From assembly GCA_964553825.1 (NCBI GenBank), contig CAZKLT010000007.1, forward strand, positions 1 through 56,670: a stretch of 56,670 bases of DNA. Reading direction: 5' to 3'. The translations under genes and the position numbers were made by a program. Positions within the stretch are counted from its first letter, which is position 1; the number at the start of each line of letters is the position of its first letter. The notes beneath the pieces are model-generated. The model saw nothing but the letters and a program-made list of their open reading frames with translations, searched no databases and was not told the origin of the DNA. Source of the stretch: an uncultured Gammaproteobacteria bacterium (GTDB lineage Bacteria; Patescibacteriota; Microgenomatia; UBA10105; UBA927). Below are positions 19,635-33,064 of the stretch, in pieces.

Positions 19635-20270
19635 CTAGAGAAACAAGGTATCCTCAATTTTCCCATTGTCCGTCTGCTTGAGAATTTGGGCATATGCGAT
19701 CTGATCGATCGTGAATTGTTTGTAGTCCCATGCGGTGGCAAACGACGACAATATTGCCTTCGTGTTGCAGAGTGGACGCACTTCAATATCCACATAGTCA
19801 CGATATGATGACCATTTCCACTCTTCGGGCGACTGAGTTATGTGGGCGATGACGGGATTAAGATGTATATATCGAGAAACATGAAGGAGGAGTTCATCTG
19901 ATTCGATCAATTTTGCCTTGAATGTATATTCAAATAATCTCCCGCTTCTATGAAGGTTAAGATTGAAAAATTTCGTGTAGCTCGTGTTGAGTTTATGCAT
20001 GAATTCCGTAATACCATTGTCTGCCTTTTGTTTTATGAGGAAATGATAATGGTTCGGCATAAGGCAGTAGCATAAAACATCTATCTTCGTGTTCAAAGCT
20101 AAGCTTTGATTGTAGGAAAGGCGCGGTGTGGCGCTGCCTGTTTTGAGGATTGACCGGATTGTCGCAATGAAGCGAAGATAATGTCCGTAGCGTTGAAAAA
20201 TTATTCGTTTGTCAACGCCGCGGTTATAGATGTGATAATAGCCGTTGGTAAAAAACGGGGCGGGCCTCAT
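19635..20270 (-). mobile_element. REP-associated tyrosine transposase (RAYT / Y1 HUH, IS200-like fold), 211 aa
   Basis: YYHIYNRG, YCLMPNHYHFLI (HUH), SRYIHLNPV (Tyr), WKWSSY; flanked by REPs. Confidence 0.9.
20093..20109. repeat. REP palindrome inside the RAYT coding sequence
   Basis: TCAAAGCTAAGCTTTGA, read as QSLAL in the protein. Confidence 0.85.
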
Positions 20271-20300
20271 CCAGGAAGATTGTATCGCGGCGCTAGAAAA

Positions 20301-20321
20301 ATTCAAAGCTTAGCTTTGAAT
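20301..20321. repeat. REP palindrome upstream of RAYT
   Basis: ATTCAAAGCTTAGCTTTGAAT. Confidence 0.85.
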
Positions 20322-20335
20322 GTGGGCTTCAAGGG

Positions 20336-22759
20336 TCATACCTGCTCCGAGACCTTGCGACCCTGAATTTCATACAGGTAGTCGGCGATATGGTAGGCAA
20401 GTTCTCTATAGAGGGCGAGCGCATCGGGCGGTGTCGATTCCTGATGTTGAATCATCAGTTGCAGATGGTCTACCAGCCGTTGCGTTGCGGTACGCGCCTC
20501 TGTCCAATTTTTGTGGGGGAGCCGCAGGCTGTTTTCCATAACTTCCTGTGCAAATTCGCTCATGCCCATGGCGGACAGCGCATTCCTGTGGTGCATGACA
20601 TGCATCAGGTTGCGTTGTAACAGAACACCCATCGCCGTTTCCATGGGGAGTTTCTCCCCATTTTGGTATGGACGCGTATCGATAGGCAGGCCCGTCGATG
20701 TCAAAAAGGTATCGCTGATCGTCGTCGGGGCGTGGTCAATGACGGACATCAGGGCGTAGTAACGGGAGAAAATCGACGCAATTTTGGATACCGGTTTGGA
20801 ATCAAGAATTGTTTGAGCATCACCATTGGCAGAAAACCGTTCTTCGATGGCGGACTGAAGCGGAAATACTTCCTTGTGGGCGATAAACGTCCAACCGTTT
20901 TCCGCGAAAAATCTGCCGATCAGTTTGCGCAGTTTCATTCGGGCACGTTTCAGGTGCCATTCATGGGCCGGGTCCCGAACCGACAATACGCGTTCGAGAA
21001 GCGGGTGATACACCTCGATGGACGCGTTTTGCCTGAGTGCACGCTGGACTTCCATCAGATACGGGGTAGGCTTGCGTAGCATCCGTTGCACGGAAGATCC
21101 CGATAACCAGTCGGCAATAATCGTTTTATACAAATCGACATCTTTGGTTTGCAGCGTATGAATGATTTTCTGATGTTGCTCAAAAAGATAATGATCTTCT
21201 CCGGGTAGGGAGAATACCGGAATATCAAGGTCAAACAGCGCAACAAACTGTTTTTCCGGATTGAGAATAATATCAGACTGGGCGATGACGGCGGCGATAC
21301 GCCGCTGGGCGATAATTTTCTGGAGCACTGCGCGGTTGCCATTGACCAGGTCGCGCATGTCAGGGGCGCGATTGAGATCCCGGACACACTGGGCGACATA
21401 GAGCGGATCCAGATGCATCTGCGCCATATGGGCGGCAAGTTCATACAGATGCCGCGCGTTGGGTGTGAAGAATTTGTTGTGGGCGAGTTTCACCACGCCC
21501 GCGAGTTCTCCGGCGCGCATGGTGCTGTAGGGGATCAATTTGTTGGCACCCAGTTTCAGCAGGAATCCGCCCCAACCTCCGAGAAGCGGCACGGCACTGC
21601 GATCCTGTTTGGCGCCGCTGGTAACCGGCGTATTAAGGAGGTAAAAGATATCCAGCCGTTCATCAAGGGCGTAATCTTCGGCCAAAAGTTCCGGAAGGAA
21701 CGCGTCTTCGTCCAGGGCGATGGCAAAGGCAATTTCGCCACCCATAGAGTGGCCGTTAAGCATGAGATGCTGGATGTTCTGGTGGTCTTTGTCCTGTCGC
21801 GCGCGTTTGCGGTTCGTGATATAGGAAAGCAGTTCTCGGGTGGCATGCTTCACCTGGTTCTTCCCGTGTTCCTCCAGGTGATAGCCGTAGACGCCCCACA
21901 TGCGGTCGTTGACGCGGGTTTTTTCGCTGCCCATGATCGACAGAATCGCCTTCACCCGGTGGGAACTGGCGTCTTCATCTGTCCATTTGATCATGGTGTT
22001 GCGGGCCGTTTGTTCGATGGCAATCGCGCTGCCGCCGAACCCATGCCACTCAATATCCAGTCCGTTTGCCTGACGCATCTTCCGGTCGAGGATTTCCTGA
22101 GCTTCTTTGGCACGCATGGCTTGATCAAGGCGGTCAAATGAAGCGACGCCGTATTGGGGGAAAAGCACTTCGGGCGCATTCTTGCGGACGTTTGCTTCTG
22201 TGAGAAATTCGGTAACGCCTCTGAGACGGGCATCCAGATCTGTGGCTTCATTGCGGGTGAGGGAGAGGAGTATTTTCCCGGTCGTACCGCGTGCGCCGAA
22301 TGCATCGATATCGTCTTTGGTCTGATGGGCCATGCCGATGTCGACCGCGAGGATGGATGTCGTCATGTCAAGCTGCGCGTCGTAGGCTTCAAAACCCGAA
22401 TGTGATTGATTCCGGAGCATATCCTGGATCCACAGATGCCGCCGGCCGAATGCTTCTTTCATGGCTTCAGCGCTGTAATCCATGGGGGCAGACTCCCGGT
22501 CAAACCGGCGTGTGGTCGCGTCCATGGTTGCTGGTCGTTCTTCAGCTGCCATAATCTCAAATACCCCGCTTCGTGCGGGGGCCTCTGCTTTTGTATTGTA
22601 AATCCTCAGGCCCCAAATCGTTTTGGGAACTGGGGATTCAAAGGGAGACAGCAGGCGTTGTAAGAGAAATGATTCATCGTGAGATGAGATTTCTACAAAC
22701 AAATCCTGTTTGTCACGCGTCCAATGAATCTTCCATCTTACTCCCGGGGGAGCCGCCAC
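20336..22759 (-). CDS. Large protein with alpha/beta-hydrolase domain (807 aa)
   Basis: MLNGHSMGG nucleophile elbow (S338), AQSDIIL (D496), GEDHYLF (H523). Confidence 0.7.
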   Translation of the reverse strand: MAAPPGVRWKIHWTRDKQDLFVEISSHDESFLLQRLLSPFESPVPKTIWGLRIYNTKAEAPARSGVFEIMAAEERPATMDATTRRFDRESAPMDYSAEAMKEAFGRRHLWIQDMLRNQSHSGFEAYDAQLDMTTSILAVDIGMAHQTKDDIDAFGARGTTGKILLSLTRNEATDLDARLRGVTEFLTEANVRKNAPEVLFPQYGVASFDRLDQAMRAKEAQEILDRKMRQANGLDIEWHGFGGSAIAIEQTARNTMIKWTDEDASSHRVKAILSIMGSEKTRVNDRMWGVYGYHLEEHGKNQVKHATRELLSYITNRKRARQDKDHQNIQHLMLNGHSMGGEIAFAIALDEDAFLPELLAEDYALDERLDIFYLLNTPVTSGAKQDRSAVPLLGGWGGFLLKLGANKLIPYSTMRAGELAGVVKLAHNKFFTPNARHLYELAAHMAQMHLDPLYVAQCVRDLNRAPDMRDLVNGNRAVLQKIIAQRRIAAVIAQSDIILNPEKQFVALFDLDIPVFSLPGEDHYLFEQHQKIIHTLQTKDVDLYKTIIADWLSGSSVQRMLRKPTPYLMEVQRALRQNASIEVYHPLLERVLSVRDPAHEWHLKRARMKLRKLIGRFFAENGWTFIAHKEVFPLQSAIEERFSANGDAQTILDSKPVSKIASIFSRYYALMSVIDHAPTTISDTFLTSTGLPIDTRPYQNGEKLPMETAMGVLLQRNLMHVMHHRNALSAMGMSEFAQEVMENSLRLPHKNWTEARTATQRLVDHLQLMIQHQESTPPDALALYRELAYHIADYLYEIQGRKVSEQV

Positions 22760-22879: not shown

Positions 22880-23626
22880 CTACGGGATAGGTGTTTCGGT
22901 TGGGATGAGTCGAGGCAAGACCTGTATATGGACATACTTGTCCACACCGATGATCTCACCGTACTCGATCATGGGTTCGCCGTTGAAGCTTGTGAACGCG
23001 GAGCGCTGTGCAACAATGGCGAGTTCTTTCTTGATGACCTGAATTTTGAATTTCCAGACCGTTCCCATGATCCAGCCGTGGTCGTCCTCACCGCTTATCG
23101 TGCTCAATTCGTATTGGGCAATACCAGTGGCATTGCGAACTTCAATGGCGCAGTAGTTAGCGACAACTTCTGCGGTATTCGCATCCAGGAATCGGACGCG
23201 AATCTTGAGCATTGAGGGTTTGCGCGGGCAGTTGGCAGAAGTAAACGCCAGGAGCCGCGAGGTTTCCTCAGCAGACAGAGGAGAGGTCATGATTTGAGTT
23301 GCCGTGGGTTCCACTGTGTTCGTGGAGCTTGCGGCCATCGTTGCGGTCGGCGTTTGCGGCACGATCGTAACGGTTGCGTTATTCAGCGTCGGAACTGGTG
23401 TCCGGGTCGCTGTCACCTGCGGGCTGGTTGAAGCTACAGGCGATTCCGTCGCTGTCGTGCTGGGGGTCGCGGTGTCGGGGGCAAGAAGCTCATGAATGAG
23501 CGACAAATTGCCGCCGATGGTGCCGGTAACCACCAGGCAGAGCAGGATGCCGATGATCCATGGCCACACTTTGCGGCCGTGGAATAAACGGTGACGGATG
23601 GGGATGGTTTTTTGGGACAGATTCAT
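22880..23626 (-). CDS. Membrane-anchored protein with Thr/Pro-rich linker (248 aa)
   Basis: AGGAG SD before MNLSQK; TM WPWIIGILLCLVVTG; TATP repeats. Confidence 0.8.
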   Translation of the reverse strand: MNLSQKTIPIRHRLFHGRKVWPWIIGILLCLVVTGTIGGNLSLIHELLAPDTATPSTTATESPVASTSPQVTATRTPVPTLNNATVTIVPQTPTATMAASSTNTVEPTATQIMTSPLSAEETSRLLAFTSANCPRKPSMLKIRVRFLDANTAEVVANYCAIEVRNATGIAQYELSTISGEDDHGWIMGTVWKFKIQVIKKELAIVAQRSAFTSFNGEPMIEYGEIIGVDKYVHIQVLPRLIPTETPIP

Positions 23627-23842
23627 TAGGTTGCTCCTCTCCGTGGGGTTACCCCCTTGGAAAAATAAAATGGGTTTGAGTACAAAACGTGCACACAAGC
23701 AGGAATAGGATATTCCAGCCTCGGTGCACGCTTCGACTCAGCCAGATGGAGCTTTGCGTGATTGTCTCCCTTTGTTAAAGAGCATGCTCGTCTCCGGTAG
23801 GCCGGGCCGCAAATCGGGCACGGTACCAGAAACAAGGATCCC

Positions 23843-23917: not shown

Positions 23918-26503
23918 TTACACGGGAGCCTGTTGTTGGAGCGTTTCGCTTATTTCATCTGCTGCGGCAAGTGCTACATCAAGAAACCGTTGTTCCATCT
24001 CAAGCGCGCCTGCAACACAAAGAATTTTGATGCCTTCAAAGAGTTGACGATTGCGCAGAAGTGCTTCTGTGAGAATAAGGGCAGAGGATATGCCTGTGGT
24101 GCTTGTGGGGCGATAGAGATCACGCCGGGCGACGATGCAGGCATCAAGCGCCTCCTGGGCTATCAGACGGAGACGGGCTTCCTCGGTTTGACTGCCTTGT
24201 CCCAACTGACGAGCAACGGCTTCTATAGCTGGGTTCATGACATTGGGGTCATAGATGCGTAAATTGTCGATAAATTCAGGTGTTGCTTTGTCCCGCATAT
24301 CAACAGACATGCTTGTGCCGTCTTTCCGCTTGAGCAGATGGGTGGCGATGCCGCCGGCGAAGGTGATTTCGCGATGCCAGGTTTCGGCAGAGGTAAATCC
24401 TGCCATAACGGCAACTTGTTTTTCTTCCGGTTTTCCTGACTGTTTTTCGACCGTTTCCGTGACCTGCGATGACCCCAAATGTGAATTCTGGATGCGCACG
24501 AGTGAGTTTTCAAATAATACCTCGTCGTTGGCTTCCATGAACATTTTCCGGGCCATGGCGGCGGTATTTTCCGCGATACCGCGGAATTTTTGCGTGGACT
24601 CCTGCAGTACGGTAAGTACGGTAAAATCAAGCAACCAATCCAGTCCATATTCTGTGGTCATGAGGCGAAATGCATCCTGCAAGGAAGCAGTCAGGTCATC
24701 GGGAGATACGTAGCCCTTCTCATTTGGTCTCCCAAAGACCCGGGCATTGGCATTTGCCGATTTGCGAAATGCATACGTGTTCATAGCGTGAACGATGGGG
24801 TCGGCCATGTTGGGCATGAGCCCCAGTTCAAGGCGGCCGCGCGTATCGCGGGGCAGCATACACACAGCCATGGGGCCGAAAAATTGGCGGGTTACAAGAT
24901 CGATGAATTTATTGCTGTTCATCTTCACTGCTACCAGGCGATTGAGCAGTGCTTTTTCGGCTTTCTTGTGTAAGGGATCACGGGCGAGGATGCTTCTGAC
25001 TTTGGCTTCCGCTTTCGTATACCACCTTCCGTTTATTGCGTCGGCAGCCCGGTCCAGTCGGGCAACCTGTTTGGGTGATAGCTCCGTATGCACCGTCAGA
25101 TCGGAAATGCCCAGGGCGTAGACAAGTTCATTGAGCGCTTTATTCTCCAGATAGTCAAGCTTCTGCGGTTCGCTTTGAAGATTGCTCTGGATCTTGTTTT
25201 TCAGCAGCCAAAGCCTGAACGGGGAGGGTATTTCATTAAATTGAACGGGGGGAAACCACTCGATTTCCAGCTCACGCGGAGGCGGCGTTTTGGTAGCGCC
25301 GACGGCGCGGGCGAGAGCAAGCGTCATTGCCTTGCCGGGAACGCCGTCCACTGACGCATGGCTCCAGTACAGCTCCACGCGGTTTTTGTCCAGGTTGTAG
25401 TGCATGTGGACGATGGACTGGCCATCTCGTGCGTGCTCAAAGAGTGCTGAATCAGGGGTGGCGGTACGGCCGACCGACATACTCATGAGCGGAGCGTCCT
25501 CTTTCAGGAATTTTCGCTTGAGCTTGGGCTTCGTCGGGACGGTGTTCCATGTATACTCACCCCCAAACGCATTGTCTTCATGAGCCTGTATGAGCCCATT
25601 GAAGATTTCCGGCGGCAGCGCTTCCAGCTTGTCTAACGGGATATCGGCATACTGCAGGCTGTTGGTCTGAGGGTTTTCGCGGAAAATGCGCACCGGCATA
25701 GTGCGAAACGTGCCGAATTCACGATAATGCGTTTTGCCGTCTATGGTGCGGGTAAGTACGTCAATGGGAGCCGCTTGTTCAGCATACGAATGCCGGATTG
25801 TCCGCAGATGTTTCTGATCCCAGAGTTCGCCGTTTTGCGCTTGCCCAAGGTGTGTCCGCGCATCATCCTGGACGCTCTGGCGTCCGGTGGTGTCGGGTGG
25901 GGCAGGATGGTAAGGTATCTGCTCAGTGGCATGTTCCAGCGCGTTCTGGGCGAAGATAAGCGACCCCTGTGCCGCCAGTTGCTGAAGCTCCAGTGTGCCG
26001 CCGGTTTTCGTGGGGTGGTCGGGTACCAGCAGTGTGCGCCATGTGCCACCGCGACCGGCGAGCGTTTCCAGAATTCTCGTCGATTTTTCATCTTTTGCCT
26101 CTTTGCTTTGGCGTACGATGGAGCCGTTCCAGGAATACCGGGGATCGGCTTCATCGCCCAGGACATATTTCTCTATAACGACGATTGCTTCGCGGATGAA
26201 ATCATCTGAAATACCGGATTCATCGATATGGTTGATTTTGCAATATTGGGAGAACAAAATGCTGGCAACGTGGTTCTGGCGGTCTTCGTTTAACACCAGA
26301 TCATCGTTGAGGAGCACCATGCTCTGCTTGAGCATGGTGATATTGGAGAATGTCCCATCCGTATCGCCCTGCTGCAGTTCATCAGCGTGACGCATAAGCC
26401 AGCGGATGGCTGCCCGGTCCGTGGAAAGATCTTCGTAATACGGGTCTGTTTCCGGCGGCGCACTGGCCGTCGCTTCTATGATGACATCTTGTTCTGGGGG
26501 CAT
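23918..26503 (-). CDS. Large hypothetical protein with HxxxDG acyltransferase-like motif (861 aa)
   Basis: VELYWSHASVDGVPG (H382...D386G). Confidence 0.6.
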   Translation of the reverse strand: MPPEQDVIIEATASAPPETDPYYEDLSTDRAAIRWLMRHADELQQGDTDGTFSNITMLKQSMVLLNDDLVLNEDRQNHVASILFSQYCKINHIDESGISDDFIREAIVVIEKYVLGDEADPRYSWNGSIVRQSKEAKDEKSTRILETLAGRGGTWRTLLVPDHPTKTGGTLELQQLAAQGSLIFAQNALEHATEQIPYHPAPPDTTGRQSVQDDARTHLGQAQNGELWDQKHLRTIRHSYAEQAAPIDVLTRTIDGKTHYREFGTFRTMPVRIFRENPQTNSLQYADIPLDKLEALPPEIFNGLIQAHEDNAFGGEYTWNTVPTKPKLKRKFLKEDAPLMSMSVGRTATPDSALFEHARDGQSIVHMHYNLDKNRVELYWSHASVDGVPGKAMTLALARAVGATKTPPPRELEIEWFPPVQFNEIPSPFRLWLLKNKIQSNLQSEPQKLDYLENKALNELVYALGISDLTVHTELSPKQVARLDRAADAINGRWYTKAEAKVRSILARDPLHKKAEKALLNRLVAVKMNSNKFIDLVTRQFFGPMAVCMLPRDTRGRLELGLMPNMADPIVHAMNTYAFRKSANANARVFGRPNEKGYVSPDDLTASLQDAFRLMTTEYGLDWLLDFTVLTVLQESTQKFRGIAENTAAMARKMFMEANDEVLFENSLVRIQNSHLGSSQVTETVEKQSGKPEEKQVAVMAGFTSAETWHREITFAGGIATHLLKRKDGTSMSVDMRDKATPEFIDNLRIYDPNVMNPAIEAVARQLGQGSQTEEARLRLIAQEALDACIVARRDLYRPTSTTGISSALILTEALLRNRQLFEGIKILCVAGALEMEQRFLDVALAAADEISETLQQQAPV

Positions 26504-26553: not shown

Positions 26554-29187
26554 CTATGCGTCATCCGCGGAAAGAGCCGCATCTTCCTCGGTCATGTTCC
26601 GCAACCAGTAATGCACTGCGAGGCGCAACCGTTTCCACCAGACGAGATTGAATTCCCTCTGCCGGTTTCGGCGGTCGTAGTATGCGTGCATGACATCGCC
26701 ATAGGTATCCTGCATGTCAAACAGGACCCGGATAAGCGGATATCGTCCGGGAGCGTGGTCAAACAGACGCTCCAGATGGAAGCGGTCATCGTCGATTTTT
26801 TTCTTCACGAGATCCTCGATGCTGGGGAAGTGCTGTATTTCCACCTGGAACATCGCTTCCGTATCATCATGCATTTCCATGACGTACTTGATCCACTCCC
26901 ATTTGGCGTCGGAGCTGGCGCTGCCTTTTTGCTGGTCTTCGATATACAGGAGATCATCCATCGTTGCTGATACCCGTCCTTTGTACAGGCGGAAATTGGT
27001 TTCATGCGGTGCGTTGTCCGCGTCCACCTGCATCATGATGGCATTGAGGACAAGTTGGGACGCCCATCGTTGCCACAGTCGCACAATTTCATTGACGGCA
27101 TAGGGAGGAGTAGAAGGATGGCGCTCAAGAAGTTCCTGTTCAAATTGGTGAACATCCAGCCCCATCATGAAGCCGAAAATATCGCTCATGTCCTCGTTGG
27201 GGTCCTCAAGGCCGCCGCGTTCAAGATCTTTGCGGTAGGACGAGTATTCGTCCTTTACCCGGACGGAAAAGGCAAGCGGGATGGCAAACGTTGAAAAATT
27301 TATGCCATGCGCAGTGGTATCCCGAATGGTGATGAGATTCTTGAACATGTTTATTTTCCCCACTGGGATCCGGTGATAATCAAACGTTCCTGCGGACGTT
27401 TTCAGCGTGCCGATGCGGGGACCAAGGATCGTATCCATCGCGCTTCGCAGCGGGCGGATATGGGTATTTGCCTTTGTGTTGACCTGCACGTCTACACGGT
27501 CTATACGGATCATCTCAAGCATCTTGCGCATGGCGGCGTTTCGTTCGGATATCGATATTTCTTCTCCGGAGTACTGATTCATGCCAAACATCCGCAGGAC
27601 AAGCTCGCCGATTTCCTGGGTTGTGGAGCCCAACGAGTCGTGCCGCATCGAGGTGAGAATCTCGGGATCGACTTTCCGTGATAACGGCATAAACTGCTGT
27701 TTGAGGAAATTTTCTACCCGTTCTGATAATTTTCCCAGTTTTCCCGGGTCGCCAATTCTGTGGACACCTGTTTCAGCGGCCGGATTGCAGAACAGGTGTT
27801 TTAACTGAGCGGAATTTTGTCTGTACAGACTGGGAGCAGTGCGTTCGCTTAAGCGAAACGTACGGAGGCGGTCCGTAATTTTTGCGTACCATCCCTCGTG
27901 CCGCGGGTTGACCCCAAATACCCGACAGACCGTATCCACGATATGTTTGAGCTCTGCACTGTGGCTGATCAATTCATAATCATGTTTGCCCCACCCTGGT
28001 TTTCTGGCCATCATGTTCGCCAAAAGAAGGGGAAACTGTGGACCTGTGTCTTTGTAGTATTCTACGGTAATATCTTCAGAAACCCACTTTGCGGCCAGAG
28101 AGATGTCTTGGATAAGCTTCATCCGCGCCTTGAGCCGGTGTTCTGAGACGCCTTTTTGTGAGAGTCTATGGAATATGCCTGGATCGACATATAAAATCGG
28201 GTGTTTCGTTTTGTCGGGATAGGAATGTTCTATGTCTTTCAACACCACACGGGCCCGGGCAAGCTGTTCGATGGCTTCATCTTTCGTCGTCGGCGCGGGA
28301 AGGCTTGCAAAACGGGCGATGTGTGATTTTCGCTGATCTTTGAGTTGGTTGTCCGGTACGCGCGGAAGATACGATATCACCCGTTTTAGCGTTTGTGCTT
28401 CATAGATGTATGCCTCTTTCTCTATCGCTTGCCGAAAGATATTGGCTTCTTCTGGTAGTCCTTCCACGCGGGCTGCACGGCGGCGCTCCGACTGAACAGA
28501 TAAGCTGTCGACAAGGGAGAATGCCTTTCCCGTTTCCGTCTCGATTGACTCCTGACTGAGTAATCGCGAAACGTGCGATGGTTTGAGCTGAAGGACGCTT
28601 TGCAGCTTGTCCTGCGGGTCGTAAAATTGGACCCGATCGTGCGGTGCTGCCCCGGCAGTAACGAGAAATGTGGTGTTCTTCAGCCTTCCCGGTTTGCGTT
28701 TGCCTTTGGCGTTAGGAACGCGGGGATGATCGAAGCTATACGTATAGGAAATTCCTTCAACTACGCGTGGCTGATGGGCAACGAGATGTACCTCTTCAAA
28801 TGCTTCTGCACGCGCAGCACGAATGATGTCTTTTGTGCTGATTGGGTTGGTGGGGTCATGTTTTCTTCCTCCACCGCCGACGAGAATGACTTGATTGGGG
28901 TTGACGACATTCCGGCCGCTTCCTTTTACCTCCCAGATCGTTGATGTAAGCTCGGGAAGCGGTGAGGATGCCTCCTGAAGCACGATCTGTTCCAGTTTGG
29001 CCCGGCTTAATTCGGGCTGTGTAGCAAGCAGCTGCTCCAATTCCGGCGTTGGGGGGAGCATCTGAGATGCGATGTCGGTGGGATCCATACGAAGAAGAAC
29101 CAGGCGGACCGTGTCCTGGTGGTATTCGTGTTCGCGGCGCTCGTTTCGAGGGTGCCGCTCAAAGAGAAATCGTTGTATTTCCGTCAT
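26554..29187 (-). CDS. Nudix-like + RelA/SpoT-like nucleotidyltransferase fusion (877 aa)
   Basis: LVGGGG...AARAEAFEEVHL (res 104-135); RVKDEYSSYRK (643), DIFG (669), VEIQ (783). Confidence 0.6.
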   Translation of the reverse strand: MTEIQRFLFERHPRNERREHEYHQDTVRLVLLRMDPTDIASQMLPPTPELEQLLATQPELSRAKLEQIVLQEASSPLPELTSTIWEVKGSGRNVVNPNQVILVGGGGRKHDPTNPISTKDIIRAARAEAFEEVHLVAHQPRVVEGISYTYSFDHPRVPNAKGKRKPGRLKNTTFLVTAGAAPHDRVQFYDPQDKLQSVLQLKPSHVSRLLSQESIETETGKAFSLVDSLSVQSERRRAARVEGLPEEANIFRQAIEKEAYIYEAQTLKRVISYLPRVPDNQLKDQRKSHIARFASLPAPTTKDEAIEQLARARVVLKDIEHSYPDKTKHPILYVDPGIFHRLSQKGVSEHRLKARMKLIQDISLAAKWVSEDITVEYYKDTGPQFPLLLANMMARKPGWGKHDYELISHSAELKHIVDTVCRVFGVNPRHEGWYAKITDRLRTFRLSERTAPSLYRQNSAQLKHLFCNPAAETGVHRIGDPGKLGKLSERVENFLKQQFMPLSRKVDPEILTSMRHDSLGSTTQEIGELVLRMFGMNQYSGEEISISERNAAMRKMLEMIRIDRVDVQVNTKANTHIRPLRSAMDTILGPRIGTLKTSAGTFDYHRIPVGKINMFKNLITIRDTTAHGINFSTFAIPLAFSVRVKDEYSSYRKDLERGGLEDPNEDMSDIFGFMMGLDVHQFEQELLERHPSTPPYAVNEIVRLWQRWASQLVLNAIMMQVDADNAPHETNFRLYKGRVSATMDDLLYIEDQQKGSASSDAKWEWIKYVMEMHDDTEAMFQVEIQHFPSIEDLVKKKIDDDRFHLERLFDHAPGRYPLIRVLFDMQDTYGDVMHAYYDRRNRQREFNLVWWKRLRLAVHYWLRNMTEEDAALSADDA

Positions 29188-31414: not shown

Positions 31415-31458
31415 AAAAAAAATACCCCTTGGTTCCGGGCGTTCCGGAAGAAGGGGTA
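31415..31458 (-). terminator. Terminator downstream of the microprotein operon
   Basis: TACCCCTT...TTCCGG/CCGGAA...AAGGGGTA + T run. Confidence 0.7.
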
Positions 31459-31602
31459 GAATGCTTCATATTGACGGTACGGGAGAGATTTGTCATTCTG
31501 ACGGATCAGACGGACAAGAAACTCCCGTACACCATAGTCAATCTCATACAGCCGTGTGGCTGACGCATCTGTGGGACGGAGTTTCGACGTTAAATGGGGC
31601 AG

Positions 31603-31710
31603 TCAGCTGAAGACTATCGGAATGCTGGCTGCAATGGCGGCAAGAAGCGCGGCAAGCGCAAGCACCAGAAGCACAATGGCGGCGATGGTTATTTTCCCCA
31701 GCCTATCCAT
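31603..31710 (-). CDS. Membrane microprotein E, MDRLGKITIAAIVLLVLALAALLAAIAASIPIVFS (35 aa)
   Basis: AGGAGG SD; overlaps the stop of microprotein D. Confidence 0.7.
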   Translation of the reverse strand: MDRLGKITIAAIVLLVLALAALLAAIAASIPIVFS

Positions 31711-31819
31711 AGCGCCTCCTGTTGCGCAGATGCCTGCGGGCAAACCGGTATGCATGGTAGCCCAGAAACGCGAGCGCCGAAACGAAGAAGGGAATAGCCA
31801 GGATGATAAGCGGATGCAT
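31703..31819 (-). CDS. Membrane microprotein D, MHPLIILAIPFFVSALAFLGYHAYRFARRHLRNRRRYG (38 aa)
   Basis: GGAGG SD; TM + Arg-rich tail. Confidence 0.75.
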   Translation of the reverse strand: MHPLIILAIPFFVSALAFLGYHAYRFARRHLRNRRRYG

Positions 31820-31820
31820 G

Positions 31821-31961
31821 CTATTCCTCCGGCGGCAGGGCGCGCAGGCGCCGCAGAGTGTCGAATCCCCAATAGACTGCGACACCGGCGGCCACCACGA
31901 AACAAATCGTGAGCACCTGTCCCTGCCATGGGATGCTGATAAACCAGTGGACGATAAACAT
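31821..31961 (-). CDS. Membrane microprotein C, MFIVHWFISIPWQGQVLTICFVVAAGVAVYWGFDTLRRLRALPPEE (46 aa)
   Basis: GAGGT SD; hand-translated, absent from the ORF track. Confidence 0.7.
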   Translation of the reverse strand: MFIVHWFISIPWQGQVLTICFVVAAGVAVYWGFDTLRRLRALPPEE

Positions 31962-31965
31962 CCGA

Positions 31966-32085
31966 TTACCTCTTTTTTCTCCGGCTCAGGAAGCGGCCGG
32001 CAATGATGGGGACACTCAAAGCCAAGAGTGGTGTTCCCACAAGGACGAGGATGGTCTGGACGGCAGAGTTTGTGAGGAATTCCAT
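31966..32085 (-). CDS. Membrane microprotein B, MEFLTNSAVQTILVLVGTPLLALSVPIIAGRFLSRRKKR (39 aa)
   Basis: GAGGTG SD; TM + RRKKR tail; absent from the ORF track. Confidence 0.75.
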   Translation of the reverse strand: MEFLTNSAVQTILVLVGTPLLALSVPIIAGRFLSRRKKR

Positions 32086-32086
32086 C

Positions 32087-32203
32087 TCACACCTCGTATC
32101 CGAACCAGTCCAATGATTTCAACCTGCGATATGCGCGTGGCGCCAGTACAACCAGCGCGATGCAGGTGAGGGCCAGAAGCCCACGTTTCACTTTTGTGTT
32201 CAT
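32087..32203 (-). CDS. Membrane microprotein A, MNTKVKRGLLALTCIALVVLAPRAYRRLKSLDWFGYEV (38 aa)
   Basis: AGGAG SD; basic N-terminus + TM. Confidence 0.75.
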   Translation of the reverse strand: MNTKVKRGLLALTCIALVVLAPRAYRRLKSLDWFGYEV

Positions 32204-32326
32204 ACAAAAACTCCTTTGGTGATGTTCCGAATAAAAAGTTAATACCAAGGTGGCATTAACTGCTTCCGCCGGAACACCAATCATACGATGCGTTGAGATT
32301 GTCAATGTGCGATAGCAAACATGCAG

Positions 32327-32355
32327 ATTATAGCAGACGTCGAGAAATCAGTCAT
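32327..32355 (-). promoter_or_regulatory. Promoter of the microprotein operon
   Basis: ATGACT-17-TATAAT with TG extension. Confidence 0.65.
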
Positions 32356-32455: not shown

Positions 32456-33064
32456 CTATGCCACGTGATGTGTCTGTACAGTGGGGACGACGGGCGCATC
32501 GTGCTCGCGGGCCTGCGCGATTGTCTGATTCCAGGTGTGTAACCAATCCTGAATCCCTGAAGCATCGACGGTAAAGACACCGGCTCGGTTGGGATCAGTC
32601 GTGATGTATTTCTGGACAAAGTCAACACCAGAGGCGGTGATGGCAGTCTCCACTGGAGGAGACGTAGGCACCGTTTCCTGAAGCGTGTGAATATTGCATG
32701 AGATGATGTTGCCAATCGTGCGCAGACCAATAATTTCGTCGATCAATACACGCATATAGCGCGTACGGACGTTGGGAAAAAGTTTGAACATGGGGTGGAC
32801 GAACGTGTTGATTGCGGCATCTATGGTTGCCTGGGTATCCATTTGGCTGACGGCTCTGGCAACGACGCCCGTAAGGAGGAGTTCTTCTGATGGTTGTAGT
32901 ATAAGCGATGTGTATACCCCTGCTTTTTGGAGCTGGCGGTCTGCGTGAATCATGCGAATGCGCGCCCCATTTACGATAATGGGTTCATTCATGAGCGCAG
33001 GGTCGCCATTGCGCATCGCGCTCAAGAGGTCTTCAGGGATTGCGTTTGTCCATTCCTTACGCAT
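32456..33064 (-). CDS. Hypothetical protein (202 aa), probably leaderless
   Basis: TATAAT 6 nt before ATG. Confidence 0.7.
   Translation of the reverse strand: MRKEWTNAIPEDLLSAMRNGDPALMNEPIIVNGARIRMIHADRQLQKAGVYTSLILQPSEELLLTGVVARAVSQMDTQATIDAAINTFVHPMFKLFPNVRTRYMRVLIDEIIGLRTIGNIISCNIHTLQETVPTSPPVETAITASGVDFVQKYITTDPNRAGVFTVDASGIQDWLHTWNQTIAQAREHDAPVVPTVQTHHVA

What the first reader, a model, noticed from the sequence alone, without database searches (positions are those of the whole stretch)
31603..32203. Operon of five tandem single-helix membrane microproteins (35-46 aa)
Seen: five back-to-back ORFs on minus (38, 39, 46, 38, 35 aa) with gaps of 1, 4 and 1 nt and an 8-nt overlap. Each has a strong SD, often inside the previous gene, and one hydrophobic helix; four also carry basic flanks (RRKKR, RRHLRNRRR, KVKR, RRLR). 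The run is bracketed by a promoter (32327-32355) and a terminator (31415-31458), and most members fall below standard gene-calling thresholds. Inference: a hetero-oligomeric membrane microcomplex, an array of type-I-toxin-like peptides, or host-membrane-active peptides. The first ORF's KRG-LLAL resembles a class III signal peptide.
Basis: partly seen in the sequence, partly recalled or inferred. Interest (0 to 1): 0.8.

Follow-up and report, generated by a model that had tools for sequence, protein, structure and literature searches.

The report
Conserved membrane microprotein operon, self-pairing mRNA
Five tiny back-to-back genes in an uncultivated Gottesmanbacteria (CPR) genome are real, conserved genes for single-helix membrane peptides, and their mRNA looks built to fold its two ends together and hide the first ribosome-binding site, as the mRNAs of small bacterial membrane toxins do.

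Summary
Five SD-preceded minus-strand ORFs (38/39/46/38/35 aa; gaps 1, 4 and 1 nt, one 8-nt overlap) lie between a TGnTATAAT promoter and an intrinsic terminator.

They are genuine genes. Orthologous arrays occur in four other Ca. Gottesmanbacteria lineages. Starts, SDs and overlaps are kept although the proteins are only about 24-76% identical. Substitutions pile up at third codon positions (58/32/98, p=2e-8; dN/dS 0.10-0.35). No such ORF chain arises by chance in ~0.58 Mb of related DNA. Each product is one hydrophobic helix, mostly with a basic C-tail, and matches no known family.

Gene content is modular: 2-5 cistrons, with an m1 or a1 form of the first gene. That argues against a fixed hetero-oligomer.

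New: the 5' leader and 3' UTR are nearly as conserved as maf. They are mutually complementary with compensatory changes, and are predicted to close the mRNA into a 5'-3' panhandle. In this window the panhandle buries the first SD, the design of hok/aapA type I toxin mRNAs. No antisense RNA was found. A hairpin without an Rfam match (GGGAGUUUC...AUYUCUCCC) marks the 3' end of this unit and the next.

Function is inferred: most likely dosage-gated membrane-active peptides, otherwise benign membrane microproteins.

The parts
32327..32355 (-). Promoter P1: ATGACT-17 nt-TATAAT with an extended -10 (TGnTATAAT)
   Evidence: Promoter scan. The TGnTATAAT element is conserved in L033, L002, L038 and L043.
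32204..32320 (-). 5' leader, about 117 nt. It contains the conserved box GTTTGCTATCGCACATTGACAATCTCAACGCATC, whose segments are complementary to the 3' UTR: H1 32320-32309, H2 32306-32301, H3 32301-32294, H4 32293-32287. SD AGGAG lies at 32215-32211.
   Evidence: 61-75% nucleotide identity across four lineages, against 75-81% for maf. Cofold with the 3' UTR gives ddG -18.4 kcal/mol, with 0 of 150 shuffled leaders as good. The first 45 nt pair with the 3' UTR with mean probability 0.66 in the full-length mRNA.
32224..32275 (-). Leader hairpin (outer stem GTTCCG...CGGAAC). It encloses a terminator-like inner hairpin (32261-32237) followed by a U-run, immediately upstream of the SD.
   Evidence: Terminator-like site in the scan. 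The outer stem is kept in L033 and L002 and changed compensatorily to GTTTCG...CGAAAC in L038.
32087..32203 (-). m1, 38 aa: MNTKVKRGLLALTCIALVVLAPRAYRRLKSLDWFGYEV. Basic N-terminus, short hydrophobic core, basic/aromatic tail.
   Evidence: Orthologue in L038 is 76% identical, dN/dS 0.22, differences by codon position 10/3/12. Distant homologue in L043. L033 and L002 carry the a1 form of the first gene, which has no detectable similarity to m1.
31966..32085 (-). m2, 39 aa: MEFLTNSAVQTILVLVGTPLLALSVPIIAGRFLSRRKKR. N-out / C-in single pass with a +6 C-tail.
   Evidence: Homologues in L033, L038 and L043 share the motif T.L...G...G..LSR. dN/dS against L033 is 0.35.
31821..31961 (-). m3, 46 aa: MFIVHWFISIPWQGQVLTICFVVAAGVAVYWGFDTLRRLRALPPEE. 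Conserved WF..PWQG motif and PPEE C-terminus; the C-terminus overlaps the SD of m4.
   Evidence: 70% identical to L033 (P0121), dN/dS 0.26, differences by codon position 13/5/16; homologue also in L002.
31703..31819 (-). m4, 38 aa: MHPLIILAIPFFVSALAFLGYHAYRFARRHLRNRRRYG. Single pass with a +7 C-tail ending in the conserved RRRYG.
   Evidence: Homologues in L033 and L002, dN/dS about 0.3. The tail is fused to m2 in L038.
31603..31710 (-). m5, 35 aa: MDRLGKITIAAIVLLVLALAALLAAIAASIPIVFS. Its start overlaps the end of m4 by 8 nt (ATGGATAG).
   Evidence: The same 8-nt overlap is kept in L033 and L002. L033 against L002 gives dN/dS 0.10, differences by codon position 5/2/15.
31459..31602 (-). Structured 3' UTR, read 5' to 3' on the mRNA: anti-SD-like GAAACUCC (31585-31578); H4' GATGCGT (31569-31563); small hairpin (31562-31549); H3' TGAGATTG (31546-31539); long hairpin motif GGGAGUUUC...AUCUCUCCC (31530-31477); H2' GTCAAT (31475-31470); H1' (31469-31459).
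   Evidence: 70-76% nucleotide identity across lineages. RNAalifold: 52 pairs, 12 with compensatory changes. Fold z-score -4.81. Retained in L038 although m3-m5 are lost there. No Rfam match.
31415..31456 (-). Intrinsic terminator (CCCCTTCTTCCGG...CCGGAACCAAGGGG followed by a U-run)
   Evidence: The stem covaries in L033, L002 and L038.

Best explanation
The locus is a genuine transcription unit found, so far, only in a few related Ca. Gottesmanbacteria lineages. One promoter, a ~117-nt structured leader, five translationally coupled cistrons, a ~145-nt structured 3' UTR and a terminator make up the unit.

Shown:
- The five ORFs evolve as protein-coding sequence under purifying selection.
- Each ORF keeps its SD, its start codon and its coupling junction in the relatives.

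Strongly inferred from sequence:
- Each product is a single-pass membrane peptide.
- m2, m3 and m4 have basic residues C-terminal of the helix (net +6 and +7 for m2 and m4), so they should insert N-out / C-in.
- m5 has a charged N-terminus, so it should insert N-in.

Inferred from folding, shuffles and compensatory changes:
- The leader and the 3' UTR pair with each other in a co-linear, interrupted duplex (H1-H4 plus SD:anti-SD), which closes the full-length mRNA into a panhandle.
- In the window and in L038 this buries the SD/AUG of the first cistron under a CU-rich anti-SD (AACUCC) that lies just after the last stop codon.
- The downstream SDs lie inside the upstream ORFs, so blocking entry at m1 should also damp the coupled cistrons.
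- Expression would then need 3' trimming, unfolding or co-transcriptional translation.

Inference only:
- This is the regulatory logic of hok and aapA type I toxin mRNAs.
- Together with the rapid gain, loss, divergence and fusion of cistrons, it suggests that the peptides are membrane-active and harmful in excess (toxin- or holin-like), and that their dose is gated at the mRNA level.
- It suggests they are not fixed subunits of a housekeeping complex.

Confidence by layer: real coding operon about 0.9; membrane insertion about 0.8; 5'-3' panhandle about 0.6; toxin-like function about 0.35. The figure given (0.45) is for the chain as a whole.
For: Coding:
- Orthologous arrays exist in L033/L034, L002, L038/L039 and L043.
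- dN/dS is 0.10-0.35. Third-position excess, pooled, is 58/32/98, chi-square p=2e-8.
- Junctions are conserved: the ATGGATAG overlap, ATGA overlaps, and SDs inside the upstream ORFs.
- No chance arrays appear in ~0.58 Mb, both strands.

Membrane helices and charge asymmetry. AF2 predicts helices, at low confidence.

Panhandle:
- Cofold ddG is -18.4 / -11.6 / -16.4 / -19.8 kcal/mol, with 0/150, 4/150, 3/150 and 2/150 shuffled leaders as good.
- The same co-linear helix order appears in all four lineages.
- Cognate leader/UTR pairs are the most favourable for L033, L002 and L038.
- Compensatory changes: ATTGAC:GTCAAT (window) against ATTGAT:ATCAAT (L038); GTCATC:GGTGAC (L033) against GCTGTC:GGCAGC (L002); and a 14-bp helix of different sequence in L038.
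- P(first 45 nt paired to the 3' UTR) is 0.56-0.69 in the full-length mRNAs.
- SD paired to the 3' UTR: 0.82 in the window, 0.60 in L038. In the window the SD is unpaired with probability 0.18 in the full-length mRNA, 0.41 without the 3' UTR and 0.67 in the nascent leader.
- UTRs are nearly as conserved as maf and mostly more conserved than the CDS.

Precedent: 5'-3' long-distance interaction with a 3' anti-SD and activation by 3' truncation in aapA3 and hok (PMC6733600).

Modular content.
Against: - No transcript, ribosome or protein data exist. The TSS is assumed from the -10 element.
- All RNA evidence is thermodynamic prediction on four related sequences.
- A plain RNAduplex test was not significant for the window or L033 (z -0.7 and -1.1).
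- In L033 and L002 the SD is not predicted to pair with the 3' UTR (P 0.05 and 0.11).
- No conserved antisense promoter was found.
- There is no similarity to Hok, Ldr, Fst, TisB, Ibs or any other Pfam/NCBIfam family.
- Five different coupled cistrons are unlike the known type I toxin loci I am aware of, which have one ORF or at most two.
- Purifying selection, conserved order and coupling fit a benign membrane complex equally well.
- A closed 5'-3' structure could simply stabilise the mRNA.
Confidence: 0.45

Rival explanations
1. Benign hetero-oligomeric membrane microcomplex, or small accessory or regulatory subunits of a larger membrane machine. Coupled translation would deliver the helices in fixed ratios, and the UTR pairing would only stabilise the mRNA.
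For: - Translational coupling and conserved gene order.
- The peptides are not detectably similar to one another, so they are not obvious duplicated copies of one peptide.
- Purifying selection on every member.
- In L043 the m1-m2 pair is coupled to a 168-aa 4-TM protein.
Against: - Only an m2-like helix recurs in four of the five lineages. The cistron sets are 5, 5, 4 and 2, plus 2 with a coupled 168-aa protein.
- The first gene comes in an m1 form or an a1 form, and m3-m5 are deleted in L038 with an m2/m4 fusion.
- No conserved partner gene lies nearby. The 877-aa family also occurs without the array in L040, L041 and L042.
- No homology to any known small-subunit family.
Confidence: 0.3
2. 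Exported or host-directed membrane-active peptides (bacteriocin- or PSM-like) that the episymbiont uses against its host or its competitors.
For: - Several cationic peptides are encoded in tandem without signal peptides, an organisation recalled from the S. aureus psm-alpha operon and aureocin A70 (from memory, not tested here).
- The locus is clade-specific and evolves fast.
Against: - The cores are 19 or more uncharged hydrophobic residues flanked by basic tails, which is typical of membrane anchors rather than amphipathic secreted helices.
- The peptides show no detectable similarity to each other.
- No ABC exporter, immunity gene or processing gene was recognised among the flanking ORFs.
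Confidence: 0.08
3. The ORFs are not five independent genes. They are either the frameshifted remains (or split pieces) of one polytopic membrane protein, or chance ORFs inside a long structured non-coding RNA.
For: - Back-to-back ORFs in different frames, each with one helix, are what a frameshifted multi-pass gene would look like.
- The flanks are strongly structured RNA.
Against: - Each ORF keeps its own SD and ATG in lineages whose synonymous sites are saturated.
- Third-position excess and dN/dS of 0.1-0.35.
- The concatenated product finds no longer protein in 5.8 billion and 1.84 billion sequence libraries.
- m2, m3 and m4 all have basic residues C-terminal of the helix, which is incompatible with alternating loops of one polytopic chain.
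Confidence: 0.03
4. m1 is a class III (prepilin-type) signal-peptide protein, and the array encodes pilin-like subunits.
For: KRG followed by a hydrophobic stretch in m1, kept in L038.
Against: - Position +5 after the Gly is Thr in both m1 and its L038 orthologue, not Glu.
- The mature peptide would be only 30 aa.
- The L043 homologue has no Gly at that place.
- L033 and L002 carry the strongly divergent a1 form (MKKMFPF...), which has no such motif.
Confidence: 0.02

Closest known systems
Type I toxin mRNAs controlled by a 5'-3' long-distance interaction (hok/sok of plasmid R1; aapA/IsoA of Helicobacter pylori; PMC6733600)
   Same: - Small hydrophobic single-helix peptide(s).
- A long structured leader.
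- A CU-rich anti-SD near the 3' end that pairs with the SD in the full-length mRNA (window and L038).
- 5' and 3' ends that covary.
- A leader hairpin next to the SD that could act co-transcriptionally.
   Different: - Polycistronic here (2-5 different coupled cistrons) instead of one toxin ORF.
- No antisense RNA promoter detected.
- No sequence similarity to any toxin family.
- SD occlusion by the 3' UTR is predicted in only two of four lineages.
- Toxicity is untested.
yonT-yoyJ/SR6 of Bacillus subtilis prophage SPbeta (polycistronic type I toxin locus; PMC5848175, abstract seen)
   Same: More than one small toxic peptide is encoded on one polycistronic mRNA.
   Different: Only two ORFs; controlled by a 100-nt antisense RNA; prophage-borne. 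Here there is no antisense RNA and no phage context (PHROGs negative).
psbEFLJ / petG-L-N type operons of single-helix subunits (recalled from memory)
   Same: Tandem genes for ~30-45-aa single-span membrane peptides that are made together.
   Different: Those sets are fixed, ancient and attached to a known complex. Here the set changes between close relatives and no partner complex is evident.
S. aureus psm-alpha operon and multi-peptide leaderless bacteriocins such as aureocin A70 and garvicin KS (recalled from memory)
   Same: Several tiny peptides without signal sequences, each with its own SD, in one transcript.
   Different: Those peptides are amphipathic paralogues exported by dedicated ABC transporters. 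Here the peptides are unrelated to each other, have fully hydrophobic cores, and no transporter is adjacent.

Membership tests
Type I toxin-antitoxin system | Small (<60 aa) hydrophobic, single-helix peptide | tested here: met
   All five are 35-46 aa with one hydrophobic 19-mer (mean Kyte-Doolittle 1.6-3.1).
Type I toxin-antitoxin system | Antisense or trans RNA antitoxin with its own promoter, complementary to the toxin mRNA | tested here: inconclusive
   No conserved antisense sigma-70-like promoter in the window, L033, L002 or L038. The scan is crude and CPR promoters may differ. A 3'-UTR-derived RNA acting in trans cannot be excluded.
Type I toxin-antitoxin system | mRNA folding that keeps the full-length transcript untranslated (SD occlusion, 5'-3' interaction) | tested here: inconclusive
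   The 5'-3' panhandle is predicted in four lineages. SD:anti-SD pairing is predicted in the window (P 0.82) and L038 (0.60) but not in L033 or L002. This is prediction only.
Type I toxin-antitoxin system | Sequence membership in a known toxin family (Hok/Gef, Ldr, Fst, TisB, Ibs, ShoB and others) | tested here: not met
   No Pfam or NCBIfam hit reaches its threshold; the best are sub-threshold hydrophobic matches.
Type I toxin-antitoxin system | Toxicity of the peptide on expression | not testable with these tools
   Needs expression assays.
Class III signal peptide / type IV pilin-like (m1) | Gly at -1, hydrophobic segment with Glu at +5, conserved among homologues | tested here: not met
   m1 and the L038 orthologue have Thr at +5. 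The L043 homologue lacks the Gly. L033 and L002 carry the divergent a1 form without the motif.
Multi-peptide leaderless bacteriocins / PSM-like peptides | Tandem peptides are paralogues with amphipathic cationic helices | tested here: not met
   Within-genome all-against-all local alignment z is at most 3.0. The cores are uncharged and hydrophobic.
Multi-peptide leaderless bacteriocins / PSM-like peptides | Adjacent dedicated ABC exporter or immunity genes | tested here: not met
   Flanking ORFs have no ABC-transporter or other relevant Pfam domain.
Fixed hetero-oligomeric small-subunit set (psbEFLJ-like) | The same set of subunits is co-conserved wherever the system occurs | tested here: not met
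   Cistron sets differ: window m1-m5; L033 a1, m2-m5; L002 a1, m3-m5; L038 m1 plus an m2/m4 fusion; L043 m1-like, m2-like plus a 168-aa protein.
Frameshifted or split polytopic membrane protein | Full-length homologues exist; loop charges alternate; selection is relaxed | tested here: not met
   No longer homologue was found. m2, m3 and m4 all have basic residues C-terminal of the helix. dN/dS is 0.1-0.35.
Any Rfam RNA family (for the leader, 3' UTR and hairpin motif) | Covariance-model match | tested here: not met
   No match at the gathering threshold, nor at E<=10 apart from one chance snoRNA hit.

The most novel reading that the evidence does not exclude
The operon, and the similarly built unit next to it, could represent a new kind of expression cassette in CPR bacteria. 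A conserved RNA frame would gate the synthesis of interchangeable, fast-evolving membrane-active peptides without any antisense RNA. The frame consists of an extended -10 promoter, a leader box, a 3' anti-SD, a GGGAGUUUC...AUYUCUCCC hairpin and 5'-3' mRNA closure. In effect this would be a polycistronic, antitoxin-less relative of type I toxin modules, possibly used in the episymbiont's dealings with its host or with phages.
Probability: 0.2. Interest if true: 0.8.

Novelty: new variant of a known kind. Interest (0 to 1): 0.6.

Why it matters
- Small membrane proteins are largely missed by annotation, and this locus shows it. Public gene calls miss or mis-start most of the five ORFs, or call antisense ORFs in their place.
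- The operon is a clean, evolution-validated case of five microproteins in a CPR genome whose biology is otherwise opaque.
- If the predicted 5'-3' closure is real, the hok/aapA style of mRNA gating extends to a polycistronic operon, in a phylum where no such regulation is reported to my knowledge (not searched).
- The locus also supplies a new conserved RNA hairpin motif to test.
- It yields concrete experiments that need no cultivation of the organism: reporter fusions with compensatory mutations, and toxicity assays in a surrogate host.

Tried and rejected
- Protein search of the concatenated m1-m4 in the 5.8-billion-sequence index found nothing. That index seems to lack such short proteins, so the negative result is weak.
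- DNA-level scans with the concatenated peptides found nothing in GTDB genomes. In JGI metagenomes they gave one spurious hit, L001, which looks eukaryotic and has no ORF array.
- Exact look-ups of window proteins failed, because the contig is not indexed by that tool.
- The relatives were reached instead through Maf and through the 877-aa neighbour.
- Pfam, NCBIfam, PADLOC, PHROGs and PDB sequence searches of the peptides and their neighbours gave no significant hit.
- The L043 168-aa protein was tested as a possible fused ancestor of m3-m5 and rejected (BLASTP E=35).
- A plain RNAduplex test of leader against UTR was not significant for the window or L033. The claim rests on cofold, cross-compatibility and compensatory changes.
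- A 15-mer of the hairpin motif hit 18 IMG/VR contigs, but none carries the full motif, so these are chance matches.
- AF2 on the concatenated peptides gave helices at low confidence (pLDDT 61). I use it only as weak support for helicity.
- A literature search for Gottesmanbacteria small proteins returned nothing.
Full report
**Observation.** The minus strand of the window carries five consecutive ATG-initiated ORFs at exactly the coordinates given.

| ORF | Coordinates | Length |
|---|---|---|
| m1 | 32203-32087 | 38 aa |
| m2 | 32085-31966 | 39 aa |
| m3 | 31961-31821 | 46 aa |
| m4 | 31819-31703 | 38 aa |
| m5 | 31710-31603 | 35 aa |

They are separated by 1, 4 and 1 nt, and m4/m5 share an 8-nt overlap (ATGGATAG). 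Each is preceded by a strong SD, and four of the SDs lie inside the upstream ORF. A sigma-70-like promoter with an extended -10 lies at 32355-32327. A G+C-rich composite hairpin plus a U-run lies at 31456-31415. Each peptide has one hydrophobic segment. m2 and m4 carry +6 and +7 C-terminal tails, m3 has an RRLR cluster after the helix, and m1 is basic on both sides.

I scanned for chains of at least three SD-preceded, hydrophobic 25-70-aa ORFs. Over the window and 37 related loci (~0.58 Mb, both strands) the scan returned only this array and its orthologues. The pattern is therefore not a chance product of composition.

**Where it comes from.** Neighbouring genes encode Maf, MreB, a PEGA-domain protein, WecG and GT4 glycosyltransferases, an M16 peptidase and an IS200-type transposase. 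The closest Maf relatives are MAGs labelled Candidatus Gottesmanbacteria / Patescibacteria.

**Are the ORFs genes?** Relatives were reached through Maf and through the clade-specific 877-aa neighbour. Orthologous arrays exist in four further lineages.

| Lineage | Maf identity | Array content |
|---|---|---|
| L033/L034 | 88% | five ORFs of 44/40/46/39/35 aa (a1, m2-m5) |
| L002 | 86% | four ORFs; no m2 (a1, m3-m5) |
| L038/L039 | not computed (nt identity to the window's maf 78%) | two ORFs: m1 at 76% identity, and an m2 helix fused to the m4 tail; m3-m5 deleted |
| L043 | 81% | m1-like 41 aa and m2-like 40 aa, coupled to a 168-aa 4-TM protein |

- Protein identities are only about 24-76%, and synonymous sites are near saturation.
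- Even so, starts, SDs, stop/start overlaps and frames are kept.
- Nei-Gojobori dN/dS is 0.10 (m5), 0.15 (a1), 0.22 (m1), 0.26 (m3), about 0.3 (m4) and 0.35 (m2).
- Pooled differences by codon position are 58/32/98 (chi-square p=2e-8).
- The competing long ORFs (108 aa on the same strand, 118 aa antisense) are not preserved in the relatives.
- Public gene calls are inconsistent. For this contig, m1 and m5 exist only as N-extended calls of 65 and 50 aa, and m2 and m4 are absent. In L033 and L038, antisense ORFs were called instead.

I conclude with high confidence that all five ORFs are translated genes.

**What the proteins are.**
- None matches a Pfam or NCBIfam family.
- The concatenated products find no longer protein in either large library.
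- The peptides are not detectably related to each other (z at most 3).
- m2, m3 and m4 all have basic residues on the C-terminal side of the helix. That fits three independent N-out / C-in anchors and not consecutive helices of one polytopic chain.
- These points reject the frameshifted or split-gene rival.
- The class III signal peptide idea for m1 fails. Position +5 is Thr, the L043 homologue lacks the Gly, and L033 and L002 carry the strongly divergent a1 form of the first gene.

**Modularity.** The m2-like helix is the most widespread component, present in four of the five lineages; no other member is that widespread. The cistron set is 5, 5, 4 and 2, plus 2 with a coupled 168-aa protein. 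The first gene comes in two forms (m1 or a1), and L043's version looks intermediate between them. L038 carries an in-frame m2/m4 fusion. The 877-aa family also occurs without the array in L040-L042. This is hard to reconcile with an obligate hetero-oligomer of fixed composition.

**The unexpected part: the RNA.**
- The non-coding flanks are nearly as conserved as maf and mostly more conserved than the coding region. Leader identity is 61-75%, 3' UTR 70-76%, maf 75-81%, m3-m5 CDS 62-68%, m2 49-56%.
- The 3' UTR is highly structured (z -4.8; 12 of 52 alifold pairs are compensatory).
- It is kept in L038 even though m3-m5 are gone.
- Leader and 3' UTR are complementary in a co-linear, antiparallel order. 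The extreme 5' end (GTTTGCTATCGC) pairs just upstream of the terminator. ATTGAC pairs with GTCAAT. CAATCTCA and ACGCATC pair with TGAGATTG and GATGCGT on either side of a small hairpin. The SD/AUG region pairs with GAAACUCC just after the m5 stop codon.
- Cofolding gives ddG of -18.4, -11.6, -16.4 and -19.8 kcal/mol in the four lineages. Of 150 shuffled leaders, 0, 4, 3 and 2 did as well.
- Cognate leader/UTR pairs are the best combination for L033, L002 and L038.
- Several changes are compensatory: ATTGAC:GTCAAT against ATTGAT:ATCAAT; GTCATC:GGTGAC against GCTGTC:GGCAGC; and a 14-bp helix of entirely different sequence in L038.
- In partition-function folds of the whole mRNAs, the first 45 nt pair with the 3' UTR with mean probability 0.56-0.69.
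- The SD is paired to the 3' anti-SD with probability 0.82 in the window and 0.60 in L038, but only 0.05 and 0.11 in L033 and L002.
- Caveats: the TSS is assumed, everything is prediction, and a plain RNAduplex test was not significant for the window.

**Mechanism proposed.** A 5'-3' long-distance interaction in which a 3' anti-SD masks the SD, with activation by 3' truncation, is documented for the type I toxin mRNAs aapA3 and hok (PMC6733600). The present operon has the same ingredients: small hydrophobic peptides, a structured leader, a leader hairpin next to the SD, a 3' CU-rich anti-SD and covarying ends.

It differs in several ways. It is polycistronic with coupled cistrons. It has no detectable antisense promoter. 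It belongs to no toxin family.

My best reading (confidence about 0.45 for the whole chain) is that the peptides are membrane-active, and that their dose is gated by mRNA closure. The main rival (0.3) is a benign set of membrane microproteins whose mRNA is merely stabilised by end pairing.

**Surroundings.**
- The next unit downstream runs from promoter 31379-31351 through a ~200-nt leader, an 84-aa 2-TM ORF, a hairpin and a terminator.
- That unit is built the same way as the operon. Its leader is 76-77% identical in L002, L033 and L038. It shares the box GCAC(A/T)TTGAC. Its 3' end carries a second copy of the hairpin motif.
- The membrane protein that unit encodes nevertheless differs between lineages.
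- Its leader-UTR cofold signal is only marginal (z -1.6 and -1.8).
- The hairpin motif NNYGGGAGUUUC-[variable stem]-AUYUCUCCCRNN occurs exactly twice in each of four lineages. Eight of its 17 pairs covary, and it has no Rfam match.
- The large neighbours (877, 861, 272 and 807 aa) were found only in the closest array-bearing relatives among the loci examined, plus a few further Gottesmanbacteria contigs for the 877-aa family. They match nothing significant in Pfam, PADLOC, PHROGs or PDB sequences.
- An AF2 model of the 877-aa protein (pLDDT 73) has an N-terminal Nudix-like domain by Foldseek, at weak E-values.
- None of this links the large proteins functionally to the peptides.

**Verdict.** It is a new family set of membrane microproteins with a predicted, covarying self-pairing mRNA. 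I class it as a new variant of a known kind: small membrane peptide genes with hok/aapA-like mRNA gating. Function remains inferred.

Noticed in passing
window 31529-31478 and 30751-30700 (minus); L002 11510-11558 and 12509-12559; L033 3910-3959 and 4835-4885; L038 6805-6855 and 7553-7604: A conserved RNA hairpin motif, NNYGGGAGUUUC-[variable distal stem]-AUYUCUCCCRNN. It occurs exactly twice per lineage, always at the 3' end of a unit that encodes small membrane proteins. Eight of its 17 pairs show compensatory changes. It has no Rfam match.
   Followed up: partly
window 31379-30640 (minus): promoter 31379-31351, leader 31344-31141, 84-aa 2-TM ORF 31140-30886, hairpin 30751-30700, terminator about 30670-30640: The neighbouring transcription unit has the same build as the microprotein operon. 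Its leader is 76-77% identical in L002, L033 and L038, yet the encoded membrane protein differs between lineages (84, 144, 136 and 77 aa). This looks like a conserved RNA frame with variable cargo. The leader-UTR cofold signal is only marginal (z -1.6 and -1.8).
   Followed up: partly
window 32314-32301 and 31304-31291 (minus); L038 6313-6323 and 6994-7004: A shared box (T/C)CGCAC(A/T)TTGAC occurs in the leaders of both units. It contains a perfect TTGACA. It could be a second promoter -35 element, an operator, or part of the 5'-3' pairing.
   Followed up: partly
window 26554-29187 (minus), plus 23918-26503, 22880-23698 and 20336-22759: A block of large clade-specific proteins (877, 861, 272 and 807 aa) with no significant family hits. 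The 877-aa family has only 8 members in 5.8 billion proteins. Its AF2 model (pLDDT 73) shows an N-terminal Nudix-like domain by Foldseek, at weak E-values of 0.02-0.3.
   Followed up: partly
window 32425-32409 and 31414-31387 (minus): Two short palindromes, TCAAAGCTAAGCTTTGA and GGCTTCGCATGGCCAGGCCTTACGAAGC, recur at other places in related genomes (L002, L004, L007, L011, L025). They behave like REP- or terminator-type repeats.
   Followed up: no
L041 1-7600: About 18 tandem genes of 102-120 aa on one strand, with no Pfam hits, lie upstream of the 877-aa homologue in a related contig. They may be a paralogue array.
   Followed up: no
window 32456-33064 (minus): A 202-aa ORF without any family hit sits between Maf and the operon. 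It is present in L033 at only 33% identity and absent in L002 and L038, so this spot is a variable insertion point.
   Followed up: no
window 19635-20306 (minus): An IS200/Y1-type transposase borders the clade-specific block. Homologues sit at the same end of the block in L038 and L039.
   Followed up: no
L033 3586-3813 (minus); L038 6007-6318 (minus); window proteins P0122 and P0123: Public gene calls in these loci are unreliable. Antisense ORFs of 75 and 103 aa were called over or beside the arrays. In the window, m1 and m5 were called with spurious N-terminal extensions (65 and 50 aa).
   Followed up: yes
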